64,000 bases of DNA, taken from Dehalococcoidia bacterium (GTDB lineage: Bacteria; Chloroflexota; Dehalococcoidia; Plut-88900). Under the pieces are notes generated by a model. It made no database searches. It saw only the letters and a program-made list of their open reading frames with translations, and was not told where the DNA came from. A program made the translations under genes and the position numbers. The stretch is taken from NCBI GenBank assembly GCA_965197645.1, contig OZ240219.1:768001-832000 (forward strand), written 5' to 3'. The stretch's first letter is position 1; the number at the start of each line of letters is the position of its first letter. Shown piece by piece: positions 7,461 through 16,358 of the stretch.

Positions 7461-9650
7461 ATGTCCGATCTGTTGGAAGGTCTCAATCCCGCTCAGCGCC
7501 AGGCCGTCGAGGCGGTCGAGGGCCCGCTGCTGATCCTGGCGGGCCCGGGCAGCGGCAAGACCCGGGTCATCACCCACCGGATAGCCTACCTGATCAGGGT
7601 CCACGGCGTATCTCCCCATCGAATCATGGCCGTCACCTTCACCAACAAGGCGGCCCGGGAGATGAAAGAGCGGCTGTACCAGCTTATCGGAAAGACGGTA
7701 GACAACGTCACGATGGGCACCTTCCACGCCATCTGCGCCCGCATCCTTCGCGTCGACGGAGAGGCCGTGGGCCTGAACAAGAACCTCGTGATTTTCGATG
7801 ACAACGATCAGATATCGATGATCAAGCGGGCGATGCAGGAGCTGGGTGTCGACCCGAAGAACTTCTCGCCTCGAAACGTCCTTTCGGCCATATCGGCGGC
7901 CAAGAGCCAGCTCATCAGCGTCGAGCACCATGGGCTCCACACCGAGACCTACTTCGATGAGGTGGTACACCGGATATACGAGCGCTACCAGGGGATGCTG
8001 TACGGCAGCAACGCCGTCGACTTCGACGACCTGCTGCTCAGGACGGTGCTGATGTTGCAGAACAACCCCTCGGTGCTGGAGAAGTACGCCTCTCGATACG
8101 TCCACGTCCTCATAGACGAGTTCCAGGACACCAACATGGTCCAGTACGCCCTGGCCAAGCTGCTGGCGAGCCAGTACCGGAACATCTGCGTTGTGGGGGA
8201 CCCGGACCAGTCGATCTACTCGTGGCGCTATGCCGACATCCGGAACATCCTCAACTTCGAAAAGGACTACCCGAACGCCAAGACGGTCTTCCTGGAACAG
8301 AACTATCGCTCGACGCAGAACATCCTGGAGGGCGCCCATAGCGTTATCTCCGCCAACGTGCAGCGCAAGGAAAAGAGCCTGTGGACGGAAAACGAGACGG
8401 GGCCCCAGATTGCTATGGCTGAAGCCTACACTGAGCGCGAGGAGGGCCAGCTGGTGGCCCGCGAGGTCGAGCGGCTGATCGCTGAGAAAGAGCACCGGCT
8501 GGCCGATTTCGCAGTGATGTATCGCACCAACGCCCAATCCCGGGTTGTGGAGGAGACCTTTCTCAGGTACGACATTCCCTACCGGCTGGTGGGAGGCACC
8601 CGCTTCTACGAGCGTCGAGAGGTCAAGGACATCATCGCCTACCTTCGCCTGGTGTTTAACCCGTTGGACGATATAAGCTTGCTGCGGGTGATCAACGTGC
8701 CCAACCGGGGTATCGGGCAGCGCACCACCGACGAGCTGACCCGCTGGTCCCGGGAGCTGGGCGTTCCCCACTATACGGCCCTTCAGATGATGGCCGATGA
8801 TGAGAAGCCACCCATCCCACACTCCTTCAACTCCCGGACCGTCAAAGTTCTGACCGTTTTTCTCACCGTGCTCAACGATCTCCTGGACCGTACAGGGGAG
8901 CTGGACGTGGTCAAGCTGATCGACGCCATCGCCGACCGGACCGGCTACCGAGACTCCCTGATGAACAGCGACGATAGGGGCGAGGAGCGGTGGGAGAACA
9001 TTCTCGAGCTCCGGGGCGTCGCCGGAGAGTATCGACACATGCCGTACGAGGACGGGCTGGCGAGCCTGCTGGAGGGTGTGGCGCTGGTCGCCGACGTCGA
9101 CGACCTGGACCAGACCATCGATTCGGTGACGCTGATAACCCTGCACCAGGCCAAGGGGCTGGAGTTTCCCGTGGTGTTCATCGTGGGGATGGAGGAGGGC
9201 ATCCTGCCCCACATAAGGTCCTTCGACGATCCGGGCCAGATGGAAGAGGAGCGCCGCCTGTGCTACGTGGGCATGACGAGGGCCAGGCAGCGGCTCTACC
9301 TGATGCGGGCCTTCCGCCGCACCCTCATGGGCGCCAGCACCGTCAACCCGGCCTCCCGGTTCCTGGAGGTGATTCCCGAGCACCTGGTCACCACGATTTC
9401 ACGCCTGTCCCAGGGCATCGAGTCGCCCCAGTCCGACCAGTGGTGGCCCTCTCAACAGGAGGCCGCTGCCCCCGAAGTGGACCTGAAGGCCGGCGACAAG
9501 GTCCACCATGATGTCTTCGGGGACGGCGTTGTCGTGTCTTGCAAAAGCTCTGACGGTGATCACGAGGTCACCGTGGCCTTCAAGGGCAGCGTCGGGATCA
9601 AGAAGCTGCTCCTCAGCTACGCCCCCCTGGAAAAGGTCTCTTCGTCCTAG
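7461..9650 (+). CDS. pcrA: ATP-dependent DNA helicase PcrA/UvrD
   Basis: AGPGSGKT, DEFQDTN, GDPDQSIY, LEQNYRS, HQAKGLEF, EEERRLCYVGMTRA, C-terminal Tudor-like domain; TATAAT at 7446-7451. Confidence 0.95.
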   Translation: MSDLLEGLNPAQRQAVEAVEGPLLILAGPGSGKTRVITHRIAYLIRVHGVSPHRIMAVTFTNKAAREMKERLYQLIGKTVDNVTMGTFHAICARILRVDGEAVGLNKNLVIFDDNDQISMIKRAMQELGVDPKNFSPRNVLSAISAAKSQLISVEHHGLHTETYFDEVVHRIYERYQGMLYGSNAVDFDDLLLRTVLMLQNNPSVLEKYASRYVHVLIDEFQDTNMVQYALAKLLASQYRNICVVGDPDQSIYSWRYADIRNILNFEKDYPNAKTVFLEQNYRSTQNILEGAHSVISANVQRKEKSLWTENETGPQIAMAEAYTEREEGQLVAREVERLIAEKEHRLADFAVMYRTNAQSRVVEETFLRYDIPYRLVGGTRFYERREVKDIIAYLRLVFNPLDDISLLRVINVPNRGIGQRTTDELTRWSRELGVPHYTALQMMADDEKPPIPHSFNSRTVKVLTVFLTVLNDLLDRTGELDVVKLIDAIADRTGYRDSLMNSDDRGEERWENILELRGVAGEYRHMPYEDGLASLLEGVALVADVDDLDQTIDSVTLITLHQAKGLEFPVVFIVGMEEGILPHIRSFDDPGQMEEERRLCYVGMTRARQRLYLMRAFRRTLMGASTVNPASRFLEVIPEHLVTTISRLSQGIESPQSDQWWPSQQEAAAPEVDLKAGDKVHHDVFGDGVVVSCKSSDGDHEVTVAFKGSVGIKKLLLSYAPLEKVSSS

Positions 9651-9798: not shown

Positions 9799-10074
9799 CT
9801 AAGGTTCTGAGATGAAGCCTTTTCTGCTCAGAAGCTTTATGTAGGCATTGCGATCCAACGTGCACTTGATAGCCTCTCGCAACTGATCAGTGCTTAGGTG
9901 CATCTGTTGCCTGATACTGTGGTGCATCGGCAGATCGCCGGCTTTGTTAGAGCGGCGGGTTCGTACGACAGTCTTACCCCCGACCGTCAGCCACGCTAGC
10001 CGGTCTCCACTATTTCTTGTTTGGAACCCAAACTTGTTGATGAGTTGATCAAACTCGCGAGCCTTTAGTGGCAT
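9799..10074 (-). CDS. HicA-like small basic protein (putative toxin)
   Basis: 91 aa basic protein; L..KFGF..R..SG..IRQQMHLS pattern resembles HicA. Confidence 0.5.
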   Translation of the reverse strand: MPLKAREFDQLINKFGFQTRNSGDRLAWLTVGGKTVVRTRRSNKAGDLPMHHSIRQQMHLSTDQLREAIKCTLDRNAYIKLLSRKGFISEP

Positions 10075-10529
10075 GGGGCTTCAAGAAGATTTTCAGAGAG
10101 TTCAGTCCAAACCTCTGCTAAATCCGGTCCGAGGTTGCCCTGTTCCTTGGCGAGAGTGAAGTAGAGTTCCACGATAGTCGCTTGCAAGTCCGCAAGGGCT
10201 TCTGCAAAGTTCTTACCGAATCCAAACTCGTTTATTGCTGGGGATTCAAGGATGCATTGACCATCTTCTACCGTGCGCGTTACATCAATCGGCTTTCTTA
10301 CGCGCAGGCGTCCGTCCCCCAGAGTACCCAGGCTGAACCGCTCAGGGAAAACTGCGGAACGCGGTTTGAAAGTTCCAGAGTGCTCCTCCGGCAACCGCAA
10401 AGTATCTGGTGCGACGATTGAACGATCTTCAAGCTTGATAAACTCCGGAGTGTTAGCCTCGGGACTATAGTCTTCTGCTTCTGGGTGTTCAGGCTGCTCA
10501 AACTCTTTTATGGTTACTGAAGAGACCAT
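10065..10529 (-). CDS. HicB-like protein (putative antitoxin)
   Basis: C-terminal EFGFGKNFAEALADLQATIVELY matches the HicB partial RNase H-like fold pattern; overlaps the downstream gene. Confidence 0.5.
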   Translation of the reverse strand: MVSSVTIKEFEQPEHPEAEDYSPEANTPEFIKLEDRSIVAPDTLRLPEEHSGTFKPRSAVFPERFSLGTLGDGRLRVRKPIDVTRTVEDGQCILESPAINEFGFGKNFAEALADLQATIVELYFTLAKEQGNLGPDLAEVWTELSENLLEAPCH

Positions 10530-10531
10530 CG

Positions 10532-10957
10532 TTAGCTCCTCTTAACAGCATTCATAGATGTTGCGCCCAAGAACATTGAGTTTGCCCAAATTTGAAACTC
10601 ATACCTGCCAGGTTCAGGTATCGGGAGCGGTGGAAACGGTATGTATAGATCCTGCGAAGAGAGGCGGTTCTCTATCGTCAAGTCGCTTTCAGCACCAGCG
10701 AGTATCTCATCAGTACCAGTTCGAACGTATCGGACATCAAATTGATAGTACCCCTCTGCATCCGCTATTTTGAAGTAAAGGCAGATAGGGCGTTCTGTTG
10801 GGAATTCCCCAACATTCACACGGTCAAAGATGCCAATGAGATTCTTCTTGCCTGTTGTTGGGTCTGCGACTGCGACGTCGCATAGCAATGCGGCAACTAA
10901 GAGAGGAGCCACCTCGCTACGGGGCTGCTGTTCCGTTGGCTGGTCCATGCAACCCAC
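10532..10957 (-). CDS. DUF6941-like beta-sandwich protein
   Basis: LLCD..D..GKKNLIGIFD..P..PGRYEF pattern. Confidence 0.6.
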   Translation of the reverse strand: MGCMDQPTEQQPRSEVAPLLVAALLCDVAVADPTTGKKNLIGIFDRVNVGEFPTERPICLYFKIADAEGYYQFDVRYVRTGTDEILAGAESDLTIENRLSSQDLYIPFPPLPIPEPGRYEFQIWANSMFLGATSMNAVKRS

Positions 10958-11120
10958 TCCTATTTTAGCGCGCTGTGTTTCATGTTAACAACTGGATCCG
11001 TTCTGTCAACCCCGATTGGGGGGGGCTACGCTGTCCGCTGGGGTGTGTCCATTCAGCTGGGGGTGCAGAGTTGCCGGATGCAACATACGCCCCTCCGGGG
11101 TCAACGGCCAGACCTAGCTG

Positions 11121-11158
11121 GATTGCTACGCCCCGACAGGGTCGAGGATCGCAATGAC
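11121..11158 (+). repeat. REP-like family 1 single hairpin
   Basis: GATTGCTACGCCCCGACAGGGTCGAGGATCGCAATGAC. Confidence 0.8.
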
Positions 11159-11179
11159 GGAAGGTGGGGCAGGCTAGGC

Positions 11180-11635
11180 CTAGTTGGGGACGGGCGCCGT
11201 CGACTTGACGGTGTCTCCCACCGATATGCCGCCCCCTTCGAGCACCTTGGTCAGCATGCCTCGCCGGCCCTCGAGCTGCTCCCTGAGGCCGGGCCTGATG
11301 GCGTCCATCCGCTCGCAGGGGTCGCACGGCTCGGTGATCTCCAGCACGACGTCGGGACCGATGGCCACCCGGGTCCCCGAGGCGAGACCGTATATCGACA
11401 TGCCCTGGACCGTGATGTTCTCTCTCACCGTGCCCACGGGCAAGTCCAACTGGTCCAAAGTCTCCTTGTCCATCATCAAGACTTGCCGTCGGCCACGGTT
11501 GTGGCCCCGCTTTATGGCGTACCTGTCGCCGGAGACACCGAGGTCCTGGACCACCTCGGCGTTGGGGATCGGTTTCATCTCTCCGTAATGCTCTTCGCTG
11601 ACGTGAAGGGCTACTACTGTTCCCTGCTCAGACAT
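11180..11635 (-). CDS. MOSC domain protein
   Basis: G..GD..RQVL, G..RENITV, LEITEPCDPC..M, RRGML..V..GG.I.VGD. Confidence 0.9.
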   Translation of the reverse strand: MSEQGTVVALHVSEEHYGEMKPIPNAEVVQDLGVSGDRYAIKRGHNRGRRQVLMMDKETLDQLDLPVGTVRENITVQGMSIYGLASGTRVAIGPDVVLEITEPCDPCERMDAIRPGLREQLEGRRGMLTKVLEGGGISVGDTVKSTAPVPN

Positions 11636-11780
11636 CTTCTTCCTGGTCCTTTCCAGCGCCGAACGCTTGAGGTCTCCGGGTAGTTTATCACAGCCCGGCT
11701 ACCAGACAGCTCGCTCGGTCTTCTATCTCGTCCCGGACCCGCCTCACCACCTAAGGCAGTGAAATCAGCCGGCGTCCTGA

Positions 11781-12509
11781 TCAAGTGGACGGCTCGTCCT
11801 GTCCTTCTTCTTCGGGACGAATGTAATCCCGGCCCCGGAGCCAGGCGTAGAGCAGCGACGCTATGACGGCCCCGATGATTGGCGCTGCCCAGTAGACCCA
11901 ATGGTCGGTCCACACGGAGCCCACCAGCGCTGGGCCGAAGGACCGGGCCGGGTTCATTGACGCCCCCGATATCCGTCCGGCGAAGACCGAGTCCAGGCCC
12001 ACCGTGCCCCCGATGGCCAGCGCCGCCATGGGCCCCACGGCCCGTACGTCGGTGGCCACCGCCATGATGACGAACATGAGAATGAAGGTGAGGACTATCT
12101 CCAGCCCGAAGGATTGGACTGTAGCGCCGGAAGGTAGGGTTGCTCCCATGTCCGCTACGTTGCCGAAGAGGGCTCGCAAGCTGAGGCTGGCGATGGATGC
12201 TCCTCCCAGCTGGGCGACCCAGTAGACGGGCAGATCCTTCCAGGGAAAATGGCGGGTCAGGCAGAACCCCAGGGTCACCGCCGGATTTATGTGCGCTCCG
12301 GAGATATGGCCCGTTGCGTACACCATCGCCGCTACGATCAACCCGAATGTGAGGCCGATGCCCACGTGGGTCACCTGGCCGCCGGAGAGATCGTCGATGA
12401 TGATGGCGCCGGTCCCCGCAAACACCAGGCTGAAGGTGCCGATGAACTCGGCGGCGGACCTTCTGACGACCGCGCCCTCCGGGGCATCGACTCTGGTTAA
12501 ACGGCGCAT
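11781..12509 (-). CDS. MIP family channel (aquaporin, NIP/AqpN-like)
   Basis: ISGAHINPAVT and GASMNPARS NPA boxes; AEFIGTF. Confidence 0.93.
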   Translation of the reverse strand: MRRLTRVDAPEGAVVRRSAAEFIGTFSLVFAGTGAIIIDDLSGGQVTHVGIGLTFGLIVAAMVYATGHISGAHINPAVTLGFCLTRHFPWKDLPVYWVAQLGGASIASLSLRALFGNVADMGATLPSGATVQSFGLEIVLTFILMFVIMAVATDVRAVGPMAALAIGGTVGLDSVFAGRISGASMNPARSFGPALVGSVWTDHWVYWAAPIIGAVIASLLYAWLRGRDYIRPEEEGQDEPST

Positions 12510-12533
12510 AGACCGATGGGGAGTGCCCTTCAG

Positions 12534-13526
12534 CTAGATCTGGTCAGCGGCAATGCTCAGAACGGCGCCGAGAATGCCGGTTATCGGAAACGTTAGTACC
12601 CAGGCTATAACTATGTGCCACGCCACTCCCCAGCGAACGGCCGACAGCCTTCGCGTGGCCCCAACCCCAAGGATAGCCGACGTTATCGAGTGGGTGGTGC
12701 TCAGCGGAAACCCCAGCCTGGAGGCGCTCTCTATCACTGATGCGGCTGTAGTTTCCGCCGCAAAGCCGTTAATAGTCTTGAGTTTGGATATCCGGCTGCC
12801 AACGGTCGTTATTACCCGTCTCCCACCCGCGGCCGTTCCCACCGCTATCATAACGCCCGAGATCACGATCACCCACAGGGGCACCTCGAACGTATCGATG
12901 CGTCCCCCGGCGAAGAGGGCCAGGGTGATTATACCCATCGTCTTCTGGGCATCGTTGGTGCCGTGGCTGAAGGACATGAACGCCGCCGAAACTATCTGCA
13001 ATCGACCAAAGATTCCGTCGACTGTTCTTGGCGTAGCGCCTTTGACCATCCACAGCAGGGCGGCCATCATCAGGTATCCGCCAAATATCCCGACGATGGG
13101 CGAGAACACCAGTCCGAGCACCACCTTGCGGATACCGCTTCCAACCAGTATATCGAAGCCGCCTATGCCCATCCCCGCCCCTATAATGCCGCCCACGAGA
13201 CTATGGCTGCCGCTTACAGGCAACCCCATCCTCGAGGCAAACAACACCCATATAGCCGCCGCGGCGGCCGCGGCCCCTACGGATTCAACGGTGATGACCT
13301 CAGGGTTCACCAAGCCCGTACCCACCGTCTTCGCAACGGCGGTGCCCGTCAGAGCCCCCACAAAGTTAAGAACTGCTGCCATCGCGATGGCAACAGTAGG
13401 GGTGAGCGCTCGGGTGGCGATAACGGTGGCGATGGCGTTGGCCGCATCGTTAAAGCCATTGAAGAAGTCGAAGGCCAGGGCGAGGGCAATTACCAGGATT
13501 ATCAGGCCCAGCGATGCCTCAGGCAT
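12534..13526 (-). CDS. pit: Inorganic phosphate transporter (PiT family)
   Basis: NGFNDAANAIAT, HGTNDAQKTMG and PLSTTH signatures. Confidence 0.93.
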   Translation of the reverse strand: MPEASLGLIILVIALALAFDFFNGFNDAANAIATVIATRALTPTVAIAMAAVLNFVGALTGTAVAKTVGTGLVNPEVITVESVGAAAAAAAIWVLFASRMGLPVSGSHSLVGGIIGAGMGIGGFDILVGSGIRKVVLGLVFSPIVGIFGGYLMMAALLWMVKGATPRTVDGIFGRLQIVSAAFMSFSHGTNDAQKTMGIITLALFAGGRIDTFEVPLWVIVISGVMIAVGTAAGGRRVITTVGSRISKLKTINGFAAETTAASVIESASRLGFPLSTTHSITSAILGVGATRRLSAVRWGVAWHIVIAWVLTFPITGILGAVLSIAADQI

Positions 13527-14154
13527 ATTCCAAAACGATACCTTCGATCACAATAGCCGCTCCCTGGCAACTGTCGGCGGCCTCCTCCAGTTCGTGATAC
13601 ACCTCTCTCCACTTCATCATCTCACCGGTGGGACGGCTATCGTTGAACAGCTCCATAAGGCCTGCCCGCCCGACCCTATCGGCCTCCTCCTCCAGGGTAC
13701 TTACCTTTACGCACAGGTCGAGTATCTGTGCCTTTTTTCGCCGCATTTGAGATAAGCTGGCCACCGCTTTCTCCAACTCTACTCCTGCCCTGTACAGAAT
13801 CTCGGCCATCTCTTTGGCCTGCTCGGTAGGGCTTTCGACTTTGAACTCAAAAAGGTCCCGGGCCGCCTCTTCTATATGATCGACAACGTCGTCCATCTGC
13901 TCGGCCAGCTTGGCTATGTCACCCCGATCCAGGGGCGTTACGAAGGTCTTGTGCAAACGCTTCATGATGTCGTGGATGATCTCATCACCCTGGTGCTCCA
14001 GGTCGCTGATATTCTGAGCATGCCCTTCCAGAGAATCGTAGTCTTTCACCAACTCCGTAAGAGCGAAGGCTGTATTCTTTAGATTAGTGGCCTCGTTCTC
14101 CAGCAGCTCATAAAACTTCTTGTCGCCCCCGGGAACAAGCGGTAGTCTAGGCAT
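13519..14154 (-). CDS. DUF47 / PhoU-like phosphate transport regulator
   Basis: LEHQGD..TFVTPLDR.DI..L...DD..D, E..AD; overlaps the pit start. Confidence 0.9.
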   Translation of the reverse strand: MPRLPLVPGGDKKFYELLENEATNLKNTAFALTELVKDYDSLEGHAQNISDLEHQGDEIIHDIMKRLHKTFVTPLDRGDIAKLAEQMDDVVDHIEEAARDLFEFKVESPTEQAKEMAEILYRAGVELEKAVASLSQMRRKKAQILDLCVKVSTLEEEADRVGRAGLMELFNDSRPTGEMMKWREVYHELEEAADSCQGAAIVIEGIVLEYA

Positions 14155-14201
14155 GGGCCTCCCTCATCAGTCTTCGTATGGTCATGTTCTCCGGCGCCGA
14201 T

Positions 14202-14942
14202 TCAGCCCCGCTCCTCACCGGATGAATGGACCACCCTGACCCTGCGGCTGTAGTATTTCCACAGAAGATCGTCCAATCCCTCTCTGAGCAGGGACGCCTC
14301 ACTGCGGGAGAGATCATCGGCGAGCTCGGACAGCTGGTCCAGCTGTGTTTGAGCAAAGTAGCTGGTCTTGAGCGACATGCGGGTCTCTTTGGAGCGCTGC
14401 CACAGGTTGGTCCTGCCCCGCCCCATCTCCTTGGCGCGCAGCACCGCTCCCTGCGCCTTGCGAAGGAGATCCCTGTCATCGTGGGCCTGGGCGGGATAGG
14501 AGGCGACCCCACTGCTCAGGGAGACCGCTACCTGAAGCTCCTCGCCTCTGACGAGAAGGTCCAAGGGGTTATCATCGAAGGAGGCCCGGGCCTTTTCGGT
14601 AGCCAGCAGAGCGTCCTCGGGCTCCTTTTGGGGAAAGACCAGGAGAAAGGTGTCCCGACTGTAACGGGCGATAGCCTCGGCGCCGGTGCCGCTGGTGGTA
14701 AGGACGACGGATATACGGTTCAGCAGGGCGTCGCCGGCGGCCAGCCCGTAATCGGCGTCGAAGGACTCGAACAGGTCCACGTCCAGCAACGCCACCGAGA
14801 TCGCTCCTCCGCCCTCCTGCGCCGCTTTGACTTCGCTCTGCACGATGGAGTTGGCGGCTGCTCGGGTGTAGAGCCCAGTCAGCTCATCCCGCTCCAACTC
14901 CTCTACTACTATGGCGGATATCTTAGGCTCTTTTTCTATCAT
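14202..14942 (-). CDS. Degenerate GGDEF domain fused to a C-terminal ribbon-helix-helix domain
   Basis: DELTGL, LDVDLF, YG..AGD, ARYSRDTF in place of RYGGDEF, SGVA; C-terminal KTSYF..QLDQLSELA..SEASLLREGLDDLL. Confidence 0.75.
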   Translation of the reverse strand: MIEKEPKISAIVVEELERDELTGLYTRAAANSIVQSEVKAAQEGGGAISVALLDVDLFESFDADYGLAAGDALLNRISVVLTTSGTGAEAIARYSRDTFLLVFPQKEPEDALLATEKARASFDDNPLDLLVRGEELQVAVSLSSGVASYPAQAHDDRDLLRKAQGAVLRAKEMGRGRTNLWQRSKETRMSLKTSYFAQTQLDQLSELADDLSRSEASLLREGLDDLLWKYYSRRVRVVHSSGEERG

Positions 14943-15125
14943 TACACAGATATAAATATGTGTACATACGTAAAGCTATATCCAGCATTGTGAATATTTT
15001 CATCTAGTCCCGTGCCCCTGTCAAGGGGTTTTGTGAGCAATTTCTCAAGGAGTTTATTGTTATCAGTGGAGATAAGGACACACCCGGCGGAATCTCTGGG
15101 CGAGCAAGAGGCTGGAGGATCAACG

Positions 15126-15158
15126 AAAAAGGGCGTCCCGGCTAGCCGGGACGCCCTC
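15126..15158 (-). terminator. Rho-independent terminator after the malic enzyme gene
   Basis: Minus strand GGGCGTCCCGG-CTAG-CCGGGACGCCC followed by TTTTT. Confidence 0.85.
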
Positions 15159-15203
15159 TGATAGTCTCTAAAGATCTGGGCACTATGGGTGAAGACCTGG
15201 GTA

Positions 15204-16358
15204 CTACGGGTTCTCCTCCTGCCAAGCCCTGCCAACCGCGTCGGCCACTGCCGGGACCACTTCCGTGTTCAGGGGGTAGGGGATTATGTTGTCGGCGGTG
15301 GGCTCGGGGATGACGTCGGCGATGGCCGTTGCCGCGGCTATCTTCATATTCTCGGTGACCATCGTGGCCCGAGCGTCGAGAGCGCCTCGAAAGATGCCGG
15401 GAAAGCCCAGGACGTTGTTTACCTGGTTGGGCAGGTCGCTACGACCGGTGCCGACGACCCGGGCCCCAGCCCGGAGGGCTTCATCGGGCATGATCTCAGG
15501 GTCGGGGTTGGCCATGGCCAGCACCACAGCGTCGCTTCTCATAGTGCGAACGTCGTCCTCGTTCAGCAGGCCCTTGACCGAGAGACCGATGAATACGTCG
15601 GCGCCCTTGATGGCATCGTGGACGCTGCCCTTGATCATCTCCCGGTTGGTGGTCTTGGCGATCTCCTGTTTGGCCTCGTTGAGGCCCTCCCGGCCTTCCC
15701 AGATGATCCCCTTGGTGTCGACGAGGATCATGTCGGTTACGCCGCTGCCTTGAAGTATCTTGGCGCAGGCGATACCGCTGGCGCCGGCGCCGCTGAACAC
15801 CACCTTGATGTCTTTGAAATCCTTGTCGACGACGCGCAGGGCGTTGGTCACCGCAGCCAGGGTGACAACCGCGGTGCCGTGCTGATCATCGTGGAACACC
15901 GGTATGCCGATGTCCATCAGCTGCTCTTCGATATAGAAGCACCTGGGCGCCGAGATGTCCTCCAGGTTTATGCCGCCGAAGGTGGGCACCAGGTTGCGGA
16001 CTATCATGATGATCTCGTCCGAGTCCTGGGTGGTTACGCAGATGGGCCAGGCATCGACACCGGCCAGCTCTCGGAACAGTATTGCTTTGCCCTCCATGAC
16101 CGGCATCGCCGCATCGCCGCCTATGTTGCCCAGGCCCAGCACCGCCGAACCATCGCTGACCACGGCGACCATGTTCCCCTTGTTGGTCATCTTGTAGGCG
16201 TTCTCCTTGTCCCGGGCTATCTCCAGGCTCGGCCCGGCCACCCCCGGCGAGTAGGCCAGCGAAAGGTCGAGCTGGGTCTCCAGCTTTATCTTGGATTTGA
16301 CGGCGACTTTGCCCCTGCTTTCCAGGTGCATGTCCACCGACATCTGTCCGTAGTCCAT
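15204..16358 (-). CDS. NAD(P)-dependent malic enzyme
   Basis: LAYSPGVA, GLGNIG, MEGKA, INLEDI, FHDDQHGTA, GAGASG, NQVNN. Confidence 0.93.
   Translation of the reverse strand: MDYGQMSVDMHLESRGKVAVKSKIKLETQLDLSLAYSPGVAGPSLEIARDKENAYKMTNKGNMVAVVSDGSAVLGLGNIGGDAAMPVMEGKAILFRELAGVDAWPICVTTQDSDEIIMIVRNLVPTFGGINLEDISAPRCFYIEEQLMDIGIPVFHDDQHGTAVVTLAAVTNALRVVDKDFKDIKVVFSGAGASGIACAKILQGSGVTDMILVDTKGIIWEGREGLNEAKQEIAKTTNREMIKGSVHDAIKGADVFIGLSVKGLLNEDDVRTMRSDAVVLAMANPDPEIMPDEALRAGARVVGTGRSDLPNQVNNVLGFPGIFRGALDARATMVTENMKIAAATAIADVIPEPTADNIIPYPLNTEVVPAVADAVGRAWQEENP

What the first reader, a model, noticed from the sequence alone, without database searches (positions are those of the whole stretch)
13519..15030. 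Catalytically degenerate GGDEF fused to a ribbon-helix-helix domain, heading a phosphate-uptake operon
Seen: GGDEF-fold landmarks are present, but the signature is SRDTF and FK..ND..GH has become FESFDADYGL. The last ~45 aa fit an RHH pattern. The gene precedes DUF47-pit-MIP, and its upstream region is AT-rich with TTGACA (15019-15024, minus strand) and a TGTACA-centred palindrome near 14957-14969. Known: such substitutions abolish cyclase activity, and RHH dimers bind DNA. Inference: a one-component transcription factor that uses a dead cyclase domain as a nucleotide or (pyro)phosphate sensor to control PiT, an architecture I do not recognise as characterised.
Basis: partly seen in the sequence, partly recalled or inferred. 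Interest (0 to 1): 0.7.

Follow-up and report, generated by a model that had tools for sequence, protein, structure and literature searches.

The report
Dead-cyclase RHH regulator of phosphate uptake
A small DNA-binding protein built from an inactivated signalling-enzyme domain sits at the head of this bacterium's phosphate-import genes and most likely switches them, apparently standing in for the usual two-component phosphate sensor.

Summary
Window 14202-14942 (-) encodes a 246-aa protein with a confident GGDEF fold whose signature is SRDTF, plus a C-terminal ribbon-helix-helix (RHH). It heads DUF47(PitR-like)-PiT-MIP behind its own promoter.

New here:
1. It belongs to a widespread GGDEF-RHH family for which my searches found no published description (405 clusters). 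Most members keep an intact GGDEF.
2. The family shares one operator, ACATA-NN-TATGT, in front of its own genes, from Deinococcus to Chloroflexota. The window copy (14950-14961) is the only such site in its 3.2-Mb genome.
3. The SRDTF clade is under strong purifying selection with a fixed alternative pocket (N335->D, G369->R, E371->T).
4. That clade is tied to phosphate transporters in three different layouts: PiT; pstSCAB-phoU downstream; pst divergent.
5. A sister genus lacks the gene and has a PhoPR-like two-component system at the same place.
6. The genome has no other GGDEF, no EAL and no PilZ, so c-di-GMP is an unlikely ligand.

Best reading: an autorepressing one-component regulator of phosphate uptake. 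The signal it reads is untested; candidates are a nucleotide or (p)ppGpp-like ligand, or a relay from PhoU/DUF47.

The scan had not noted GGDEF-RHH before, only other dead-enzyme-RHH fusions.

The parts
14202..14942 (-). Gene for the 246-aa GGDEF*(SRDTF)-RHH protein
   Evidence: ORF; Pfam; model pLDDT 89.4; orthologs at 46-82% identity
14403..14891 (-). Degenerate GGDEF domain, residues 18-180. SRDTF replaces GG[DE]EF and there is no RxxD I-site. Retained: D54, D56, F58, D71, D97, K171, R175.
   Evidence: dN/dS 0.03-0.06 among genus-g4 orthologs
14232..14381 (-). Ribbon-helix-helix DNA-binding domain, residues ~188-237 (strand LKTSYFA, helices 198-211 and 215-237)
   Evidence: RHH profile finds 405 protein clusters
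14950..14961 (.). Candidate operator ACATATTTATAT (minus strand), one mismatch to the family palindrome ACATA-NN-TATGT. It is the only site of this class in the 3.2-Mb genome.
14943..14968 (.). Extended operator region: half-sites TATGT(14968-14964) AC ACATA(14961-14957) TT TATAT(14954-14950), and the 9/4/9 inverted repeat 14943-14964 that abuts the ATG
14996..15024 (-). Promoter-like site TTGACA-17 nt-GAAAAT. The -35 hexamer is conserved in genus g4, which has TACAGT as its -10.
15126..15159 (-). Intrinsic terminator of the upstream malic-enzyme gene: 14-bp stem followed by a U-run. It separates the operon from upstream transcription.
   Evidence: -28.9 kcal/mol, z=-5.2
13519..14154 (-). DUF47/PhoU_div (PitR-type accessory protein), 47 nt after the regulator's stop
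12534..13526 (-). PiT/PHO4 phosphate transporter, overlapping the DUF47 stop. It is the only PHO4 match in the genome.
11781..12509 (-). MIP channel, last tightly packed gene of the unit. It is conserved after DUF47 in genus g4 too.

Best explanation
The gene encodes a one-component transcription regulator of phosphate uptake.

How it most likely works:
- Its C-terminal RHH dimerises and binds the palindrome ACATA-NN-TATGT (window 14950-14961, with an extra TATGT half-site at 14964-14968).
- That site lies between the predicted promoter (TTGACA 15024-15019 / GAAAAT 15001-14996) and the start codon. Binding there would repress the regulator-DUF47-PiT-MIP operon, including the regulator itself.
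- The N-terminal GGDEF domain is no longer a cyclase. It serves as the input module.
- It keeps the Mg2+ and phosphate-contacting residues (D54, D97, K171, R175, R27). It has a fixed new set at the guanine and catalytic positions (D62, S95-R96, T98, L67).
- I therefore think it reads a phosphate-bearing nucleotide (GTP- or (p)ppGpp-like, not c-di-GMP) that reports phosphate or energy status. That ligand would change how the tethered GGDEF domains pack, and hence how well RHH dimers occupy the operator.

Evolutionary reading: the protein descends from active cyclase-RHH autoregulators. In this Dehalococcoidia lineage it occupies the regulatory place that a PhoPR-type two-component system holds in a sister genus.

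What is shown by comparison: the fold, loss of catalytic residues, purifying selection, the shared operator, linkage to Pi transporters, and the complementary distribution with the two-component system.

What is inferred: repression (from operator position), the ligand class, and allostery.
For: FOLD AND DEGENERACY.

POCKET
- In 38 of 38 distinct SRDTF-clade sequences the PleD-equivalent positions read N335->D, G369->R, E371->T and H340->L/I.
- D327, D329, F331, D344, E370->D, K442 and R446 equivalents are kept in 38 of 38.
- In 63 of 63 intact members N, G and E are canonical.
- Residue roles come from passages of bioRxiv 10.1101/2025.08.22.671821. That paper also shows (p)ppGpp occupying a GGDEF active site; the PDB entries 9g85/9g86 appear.

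SELECTION: dN/dS of the GGDEF part is 0.03-0.06 among genus-g4 orthologs.

OPERATOR
- 27 of 145 family loci have an exact ACATANNTATGT within a 245-nt upstream window, and 56 of 145 have at most one mismatch. In 2641 control windows of the same loci the rates are 0.2% and 0.4%.
- In Deinococcus the site overlaps the -10 of TTGACA-N17-TATGTT.
- ACATATATATGT is unique in the genome and sits at the gene's own promoter in 3 of 3 Deinococcus genomes that have it.
- In G000 the class ACATANNTAT[AG]T occurs once in 3.21 Mb, at this gene.
- In g4 the exact site occurs 1-2 times per genome, one of them ~100 nt upstream of the gene, in 3 of 5 genomes. The other two carry one-mismatch variants.

PHOSPHATE LINKAGE
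- 14 of 16 SRDTF-type loci with DNA in hand have Pi-transport genes in the held flanks.
- Window: DUF47-PiT. Nine g4 genomes: pstS-C-A-B-phoU/DUF47-MIP directly downstream. Four clade-2 loci: pst on the opposite strand upstream.
- Among other family members: 1 of 67 genome loci (PhoU, L109) and 1 weak hit in 78 metagenome loci.

DISPLACEMENT
- Sister genus G002 lacks the gene. It has an OmpR-type regulator plus a HAMP-PAS histidine kinase directly upstream of pstSCAB-phoU-DUF47.
- G000 and four g4 genomes have only 32-41%-identical paralogs of that system, whereas operon orthologs are ~65% identical.

NOT c-di-GMP
- G000 has one GGDEF (this one), no EAL and no PilZ.
- There is no RxxD I-site.
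Against: - No experiment exists: DNA binding, repression and any ligand are all inferred.
- K332->E/A and N335->D remove two PleD contacts to the beta-phosphate and guanine. Nucleotide binding may therefore be lost altogether.
- The window protein's own RHH Pfam score is below threshold.
- The window -10 (GAAAAT) is weak, no Shine-Dalgarno precedes the ATG, and the transcription start is unknown.
- Clade-2 relatives lack the ACATA/TATGT operator (3-4 mismatches). Their operator was not resolved.
- G000 still has four OmpR/kinase pairs, and one might respond to phosphate.
- Two SRDTF loci on short contigs show no Pi genes in the little flank available.
- The nine g4 genomes are close kin, so they count as roughly one lineage.
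Confidence: 0.55

Rival explanations
1. Same regulator and operator, but the signal is not a small ligand. The dead GGDEF domain is a docking surface for the co-encoded PhoU-family protein (DUF47/PitR here, a PhoU-DUF47 fusion in genus g4). That protein would report transporter flux, as PhoU or PitR do for PhoR in E. coli and S. aureus.
For: - A DUF47 gene accompanies the regulator in all three layouts.
- PitR- and PhoU-clade accessory proteins work with their cognate importers to control the phosphate two-component system (PMC13170248, passages read).
- Two nucleotide contacts are lost in the pocket.
Against: - The orthologous PhoU-DUF47 (65% identical) is also present in G002, where a PAS-kinase system heads the operon. 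The accessory protein is therefore not specific to this regulator.
- The conserved pocket residues (R96, D62, T98 in 38 of 38) look like a remodelled ligand site rather than a surface patch.
- No interaction evidence of any kind was obtained.
Confidence: 0.3
2. The protein is only an autoregulator (or a general small nucleoid or promoter-bound factor). Its neighbourhood with phosphate transporters is incidental synteny inherited within one lineage.
For: - Most family members (intact GGDEF) are not next to phosphate genes.
- Exact operators are essentially unique per genome.
- The g4 genomes are close relatives.
Against: - Linkage persists although the transporter type (PiT against Pst), gene order and orientation differ between clades that are 46-49% identical.
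- In the window and in g4 the transporter genes lie downstream with short gaps and no predicted terminator, so autoregulation necessarily regulates them.
- Distribution is complementary with the PhoPR-like system.
- In G037, remnants of the regulator gene and of phoU abut each other.
Confidence: 0.1
3. The domain is still part of c-di-GMP signalling, either as a non-canonical cyclase or as a c-di-GMP receptor that couples the messenger to DNA binding.
For: - The ancestry is from intact GGDEF-RHH proteins.
- Degenerate GGDEF domains of other proteins bind c-di-GMP at I-sites (recalled knowledge).
- The RHH protein CdbA binds c-di-GMP (PMC7156744, abstract in the search listing).
Against: - SRDTF lacks both glycines and the second acidic residue, and N335 is replaced.
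- There is no RxxD.
- The closed genome has no other GGDEF, no EAL and no PilZ.
- The other family-f1 genomes with the gene have one or two matches to the GGDEF-containing profile: one in each of G003-G011, two in G001.
Confidence: 0.03
4. The C-terminal RHH marks an antitoxin-like module of a toxin-antitoxin pair, as the best Pfam name (Antitox_RHH) might suggest.
For: The Pfam family name is the only support.
Against: - There is no toxin-like neighbour; the flanking genes are a malic enzyme and DUF47.
- The RHH is fused to a 160-residue enzyme-derived domain.
- The family is chromosomal, with a single autoregulatory operator.
Confidence: 0.02

Closest known systems
PhoR-PhoB (PhoPR) with the PhoU / PitR accessory proteins
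   Same: It sits at the head of, or beside, pstSCAB-phoU or DUF47-pit genes. In a sister genus the same chromosomal role is taken by an OmpR-type regulator plus a HAMP-PAS kinase. PitR-type DUF47 proteins pair with Pit transporters (PMC13170248).
   Different: There is no kinase and no receiver domain. It is a single polypeptide with an RHH output and a dead GGDEF input. The operator ACATA-NN-TATGT is unrelated to Pho boxes (the Pho-box comparison is recalled, not tested).
Degenerate GGDEF sensor domains (PdeA/CC3396 GTP-binding GGDEF, FimX, PelD, PopA, GdpP)
   Same: A GGDEF fold kept under selection after loss of catalysis and used as a regulatory module. FimX GGDEF (3hva) is among the Foldseek hits.
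   Different: By my recollection those act on EAL/DHH enzymes, localisation or secretion, and bind GTP or c-di-GMP. None has a DNA-binding output. Here there is no I-site, and the host has no c-di-GMP machinery.
RHH regulators fused to a ligand-binding or enzyme domain: NikR, MetJ, PutA
   Same: An RHH dimer reads a short palindromic operator at its own operon. Occupancy is set by a fused or bound sensor: Ni in NikR, SAM in MetJ, proline/redox state in PutA (recalled knowledge).
   Different: In those proteins the RHH is N-terminal; here it is C-terminal to the sensor, and the sensor fold (GGDEF palm) is new for this role. The only PDB sequence hit to the RHH part is a CopG-family regulator, 7by2, at E=0.26.
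CdbA of Myxococcus xanthus (RHH c-di-GMP receptor)
   Same: It links an RHH DNA-binding protein with the c-di-GMP world (PMC7156744; abstract seen in the listing).
   Different: CdbA is a stand-alone RHH nucleoid-associated protein with many sites. This family carries its own GGDEF domain and has essentially one operator per genome.
Other dead-enzyme-RHH fusions noted by this scan (DNPH1-like-RHH, nucleotidyltransferase-RHH)
   Same: The same design logic: a catalytically disabled nucleotide-binding enzyme fold with a C-terminal RHH and a conserved palindrome beside the gene (AI notes; unchecked).
   Different: The sensor fold, the taxa (CPR bacteria, archaea) and the operators are all different. 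There is no link to phosphate transport.

Membership tests
GGDEF diguanylate cyclases (PF00990) | GGDEF palm-domain fold | tested here: met
   Pfam E=4.5e-25; Foldseek E=2.8e-15, TM 0.87 to 7a7e/6tts/PleD; pLDDT ~97
GGDEF diguanylate cyclases (PF00990) | GG[DE]EF active-site loop plus the guanine-binding Asn (PleD N335) | tested here: not met
   The loop reads SRDTF and N335 is replaced by D62, in 38 of 38 clade members. It should not be filed as a cyclase.
GGDEF diguanylate cyclases (PF00990) | c-di-GMP synthesis from GTP | not testable with these tools
   Needs an enzyme assay.
c-di-GMP receptors of the degenerate-GGDEF type | RxxD inhibitory site five residues before the signature | tested here: not met
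   The R359/D362 equivalents are T86/E89 here. The site is absent from the whole family.
Ribbon-helix-helix (CopG/Arc/MetJ) DNA-binding domains | Strand-helix-helix unit of ~45 residues recognised by RHH profiles | tested here: met
   The window protein is sub-threshold (E=0.011). 35 of 54 relatives hit Antitox_RHH and 32 of 54 hit RHH_3. Relatives reach 24-29 bits against the RHH_3 cut-off of 21.6. Helices 198-211 and 215-237 follow an extended segment.
Ribbon-helix-helix (CopG/Arc/MetJ) DNA-binding domains | Dimerisation through an antiparallel beta-ribbon | not tested
   A monomer model cannot show it. No dimer or complex prediction could be run.
Ribbon-helix-helix (CopG/Arc/MetJ) DNA-binding domains | Binding to a short symmetric operator, usually at the regulator's own promoter | tested here: inconclusive
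   There is strong comparative support but no binding assay.
Phosphate (Pho) regulon regulators | Genomic association with pst/pit/phoU genes across lineages | tested here: met
   14 of 16 SRDTF-type loci, in three layouts. Distribution is complementary to a PhoPR-like system.
Phosphate (Pho) regulon regulators | Pi-dependent control of transporter expression | not testable with these tools
   Needs expression data or genetics.

The most novel reading that the evidence does not exclude
GGDEF-RHH proteins are an unrecognised, phylum-spanning class of one-component regulators. All read the same 12-bp operator, ACATA-NN-TATGT, at their own promoter. Intact members would couple c-di-GMP synthesis directly to transcription. 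In Dehalococcoidia lineages that lost c-di-GMP signalling altogether, a dead-cyclase version was kept and rewired into the master switch of phosphate uptake. There it replaces PhoR-PhoB and reads phosphate status through a nucleotide or alarmone bound in the former GTP site.
Probability: 0.3. Interest if true: 0.8.

Novelty: new variant of a known kind. Interest (0 to 1): 0.66.

Why it matters
**Phosphate regulation.** Phosphate homeostasis in bacteria is explained almost entirely through PhoR-PhoB and PhoU. Many lineages lack a recognisable PhoPR: 228 of the genomes surveyed in PMC13170248. What controls their transporters is open. This locus offers a concrete and testable alternative, a single small protein with a defined operator.

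**c-di-GMP field.** It exposes a large family of at least 405 clusters at 50% identity in which a GGDEF domain is wired directly to a DNA-binding domain. My searches found no paper describing this output. Cultured hosts (Deinococcus, Herpetosiphon) make experiments easy. It also shows what can become of a GGDEF domain when the messenger network disappears.

**Practical use.** The 12-bp operator with its ~200-residue repressor could serve as a compact regulatory part.

Tried and rejected
NOT OBTAINED
It was never accepted because the queue was full, so there is no result either way.
- A second structure job for the RHH alone (A4) was not accepted. There is therefore no fold search of the isolated RHH.

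LED NOWHERE
- ESM Atlas on residues 183-246: no usable hit.
- PDB profile search with the RHH alignment: only a CopG-family regulator at E=0.26 and one spurious hit.
- Rfam over 11000-15400: nothing near threshold, so there is no known riboswitch or leader.
- NCBIfam: only the generic GGDEF domain model, no named equivalog.
- Earlier scan notes by place and by sequence: nothing on this gene.
- Clade-2 operator: an 11-mer, CGAGCATATCA, is shared between the regulator and pstS upstream regions of L044. No motif is common to the four clade-2 loci. Left unresolved.
- Whether G000 has a true PhoPR: four OmpR/kinase pairs exist, none above the proteobacterial PhoB/PhoR cut-offs. This is inconclusive by itself. 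The orthology test against G002 was more informative.

REJECTED READINGS
- Active cyclase.
- I-site c-di-GMP receptor.
- Toxin-antitoxin antitoxin.
(See the rival explanations for the reasons.)
Full report
**The object**

Window 14202-14942 (minus strand) is a 246-codon ORF.
- Pfam finds a GGDEF domain (E=4.5e-25, residues 18-176) and a sub-threshold Antitox_RHH match (E=0.011, residues 195-231).
- An AlphaFold2 model built on a 54-sequence alignment has mean pLDDT 89.4. Confidence is about 97 across the GGDEF domain. The linker 181-197 is poorly defined, and two helices follow at 198-211 and 215-237.
- Foldseek matches solved GGDEF domains at E=2.8e-15 with TM 0.87.
- HMMER alignments to DosC and PleD put SRDTF on the GGDEF/GGEEF loop, and FESFDADYGL on FKEINDTWGH / FKKINDTFGH.

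**The RHH**

- The window protein alone does not pass a Pfam cut-off.
- 35 of 54 aligned relatives hit Antitox_RHH and 32 of 54 hit RHH_3 at E<=0.01.
- Relatives found with an RHH-only profile score 24-29 bits against the RHH_3 cut-off of 21.6.
- A profile search of PDB sequences gave only a CopG-family regulator at E=0.26.
- The beta-strand is not formed in the monomer model, as expected for a ribbon that exists only in the dimer. I could not run a dimer prediction.

**The transcription unit**

- Downstream on the same strand lie DUF47/PhoU_div (13519-14154, 47 nt after the stop), PiT/PHO4 (12534-13526, overlapping) and MIP (11781-12509).
- No terminator-like site was found between them on that strand.
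- Upstream, the malic-enzyme gene ends at 15204. It is followed by a strong hairpin plus U-run (-28.9 kcal/mol, z=-5.2).
- A promoter-like TTGACA-17-GAAAAT lies at 15024-14996.
- The region is AT-rich: GC 0.487 against 0.61 for the genome.
- Rfam finds no leader RNA.

**A large family, mostly with intact cyclase motifs**

- A search of 5.8 billion proteins gave about 38 short (192-275 aa) full-length relatives.
- A pattern scan of one genome per species found 208 loci encoding relatives.
- An RHH-only profile found 405 clusters at E<=0.001 among 1.84 billion representatives, 227 of them at E<=1e-10. Most are 190-250 aa with the RHH at the C-terminus.
- Hosts include Deinococcus, Trueperaceae, Meiothermus, Acidimicrobiia, Gaiellaceae, Clostridium, Herpetosiphon, Oscillochloris, Anaerolineae and Dehalococcoidia.
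- Of 114 distinct sequences, 63 have an intact G/S-G-D/E-E-F/Y loop. 38 have [SA]RDTF (Dehalococcoidia), 4 have VRDSF (Anaerolineae) and 9 have other variants.
- A maximum-likelihood tree was built from 64 rows: the 54 of alignment A2 plus 10 further locus proteins that I picked. The SRDTF sequences form one group (support 93/94) beside the VRDSF group. All degenerate forms lie on one side of a 97/91 branch. One loss of the canonical motif is enough to explain this.

**The dead domain is maintained, not decaying**

Mapping onto PleD uses window residue n = PleD n+273. Residue roles come from passages of bioRxiv 10.1101/2025.08.22.671821.
- The SRDTF clade keeps D327, D329, F331, D344, E370 (as D), K442 and R446 equivalents in 38 of 38 sequences.
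- It has fixed N335->D, G369->R, E371->T and H340->L/I in 38 of 38. K332 becomes E, A or Q.
- No member of the family has the RxxD I-site.
- dN/dS of the GGDEF part is 0.03-0.06 among genus-g4 orthologs and 0.14-0.22 between the window and other genera. dS is high, so these values are rough.

**c-di-GMP is an unlikely ligand**

- The window's genome is one 3.21-Mb contig (94% complete). It has a single GGDEF match (this gene), no EAL and no PilZ.
- The nine g4 genomes each have a single match to a profile that includes the GGDEF domain.

**The operator**

- Read on the coding strand, the 30 nt before the ATG are ACG TATGT AC ACATA TT TATAT CTGTGTA (14971-14943).
- Next to it, ACATA-TT-TATAT (14961-14950) matches a palindrome, ACATA-NN-TATGT, that I first saw in the orthologous upstream regions of genus g4.
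- The same 12-mer, mostly as ACATATATATGT, then turned up in front of intact family members in Deinococcus and Trueperaceae. In Deinococcus it overlaps the -10 of a TTGACA-N17-TATGTT promoter.
- Over all 145 loci with at least 150 nt of upstream window, 27 have an exact match and 56 have at most one mismatch. In 2641 equal-sized control windows from the same loci the rates are 0.2% and 0.4%.
- In three Deinococcus genomes ACATATATATGT occurs once per genome, at this gene's promoter.
- In G000 the class ACATANNTAT[AG]T occurs once in 3.21 Mb, here.
- In g4 the exact palindrome occurs once or twice per genome, one copy ~100 nt upstream of the gene, in 3 of 5 genomes. The other two have one-mismatch variants.
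- This parallels the near-invariance of the RHH sequence across phyla (RxEASLLRE). It is the strongest evidence that the C-terminus binds DNA and that the window site is functional.
- In the window and in g4 the site lies some 35-45 nt downstream of the predicted -10; in Deinococcus it lies over the -10. Both positions suggest repression.

**Link to phosphate**

- In nine genomes of sister genus g4 the ortholog (73-75% identical) is followed directly by pstS, pstC, pstA, pstB, a 447-aa PhoU-DUF47 ORF and MIP. The flanking synteny is the same as in the window: malic enzyme, HbpS-like, S16/KH/RimM on one side, MOSC and UvrD on the other.
- So between the two genera the transporter module was exchanged (PiT against PstSCAB-PhoU) behind the same regulator.
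- In four loci of a second SRDTF/ARDTF clade (46-49% identical) the pst operon lies on the opposite strand 0.3-3 kb upstream.
- That makes 14 of 16 SRDTF-type loci. The other two sit on 3-4-kb contigs with almost no informative flank.
- Outside the clade, phosphate genes were found near 1 of 67 genome loci (PhoU after an SGDEF member of Oscillochloris). There was one weak hit in 78 mostly short metagenome loci.
- In G037 a decayed remnant of the gene abuts a C-terminal fragment of phoU.
- G000 has no PhoU, no PstS/C/A homolog and only this PHO4 gene. The operon therefore carries its only recognisable Pi importer.

**Displacement of a two-component system**

- G002 is the one family-f1 genome without the gene (single contig, 94% complete).
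- It has pstSCAB-phoU-DUF47 immediately preceded by an OmpR-type response regulator and a HAMP-PAS-HisKA-HATPase kinase, the PhoPR architecture.
- It has no ACATA/TATGT site in that 16-kb stretch.
- G000's best matches to these two proteins are 33-37% identical. Those of four g4 genomes are 32-41% identical, most over the kinase core only. Operon orthologs are about 65% identical.
- So within one family either the two-component system or the GGDEF*-RHH protein heads the phosphate operon.

**Mechanism**

I commit to an autorepressor of the phosphate-uptake operon. Its RHH reads ACATA-NN-TATGT, and its dead GGDEF domain is the input.
- For the signal I favour a phosphate-bearing nucleotide in the remodelled GTP site. 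The Mg and phosphate ligands are kept. There is precedent for (p)ppGpp in a GGDEF active site.
- A relay from the PhoU-family protein is a serious rival. PitR/PhoU accessory proteins are known to act with their importers (PMC13170248, passages).
- I could not test either: the complex-prediction queue never opened.

**Literature**

- Full-text searches found no paper describing a GGDEF-RHH fusion. The queries were: GGDEF + ribbon-helix-helix (25 papers); GGDEF + CopG (12); GGDEF + Deinococcus + diguanylate cyclase + DNA-binding (18); degenerate GGDEF + transcription factor + DNA binding (23); Deinococcus + c-di-GMP + GGDEF (38).
- I saw listings only for these, plus passages of PMC1978522, PMC1183210 and PMC13725321.
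- The library lacks most subscription journals, and I could not query InterPro.

**Verdict**

This is a new variant of known kinds (one-component RHH regulators; degenerate GGDEF sensors). It has a clear experimental handle and a family-wide operator that, as far as I can tell, has not been described.

Noticed in passing
L064-L113 (Deinococcus/Trueperaceae loci), e.g. L081:7953-9193: In Deinococcota the intact GGDEF-RHH gene is often followed, frequently with overlapping stop and start, by a ~210-aa cytidine/deoxycytidylate-deaminase-like gene (13 of the 83 neighbour proteins scanned, at 12 loci). In Deinococcus it lies divergently next to groES (Cpn10 hits) and a ~548-aa ORF.
   Followed up: partly
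L023:12550-13893; also G002 (L197:10235-11575): In genus g4, PhoU and DUF47/PhoU_div form one 447-aa open reading frame, a fusion of the two accessory-regulator types. In G002 (genus g3) the two matches lie in one reading frame and the open frame around DUF47 is 469 aa. In the window only the DUF47 half remains, next to PiT.
   Followed up: partly
L044:1131-2240 (-) (= L032:6590-7699): The PhoU of a clade-2 pst operon carries an N-terminal arsenate-reductase-like domain (TIGR02691 E=7e-34, residues 4-132, below cut-off). Together with the MIP channel conserved in the window and g4 operons, this hints at an arsenate/arsenite side to these phosphate operons. The arsenite-channel idea is recalled, not tested.
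   Followed up: partly
L033:8093-8760 (genome G037): A decayed, N-terminally truncated and frameshifted remnant of an SRDTF-type gene (8093-8428, -) abuts a C-terminal fragment of phoU (8410-8760, +). It looks as if one deletion removed the pst operon and the regulator's 5' half together.
   Followed up: partly
Proteins P0200, P0261, P0233, P0286, P0293, P0316, P0264: The same RHH subtype also occurs in other architectures: tandem GGDEF-GGDEF-RHH (~385 aa), a fragment with a GGDEF end, RHH and an HD-GYP-type HD_5 domain, RHH-receiver, GGDEF-RHH followed by a FHIPEP-like piece, and a protein with three RHH repeats.
   Followed up: partly
G000 whole genome; window 12534-13526: The closed genome has no PhoU and no PstS/C/A homologs. 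The only PBP_like_2 protein (genome 970.8 kb) sits near an ABC ATPase that is 39% identical to PstB, so it probably belongs to another anion transporter. The PiT in this operon seems to be the organism's sole recognisable phosphate importer.
   Followed up: partly
window 9799-10957: A lower-GC stretch (0.46-0.52 against ~0.61) holds a DUF6941 gene (10532-10957, -) and two overlapping small ORFs (154 and 91 aa, 9799-10529, -) with no Pfam family at E<=0.1. It may be an acquired cassette.
   Followed up: no
L052:4809-7820, L061:4861-7689: In Anaerolineae the VRDSF-type degenerate relatives lie just downstream of a P-type cation-transport ATPase gene. This suggests that a different transporter was recruited under a dead-cyclase RHH regulator.
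   Followed up: no
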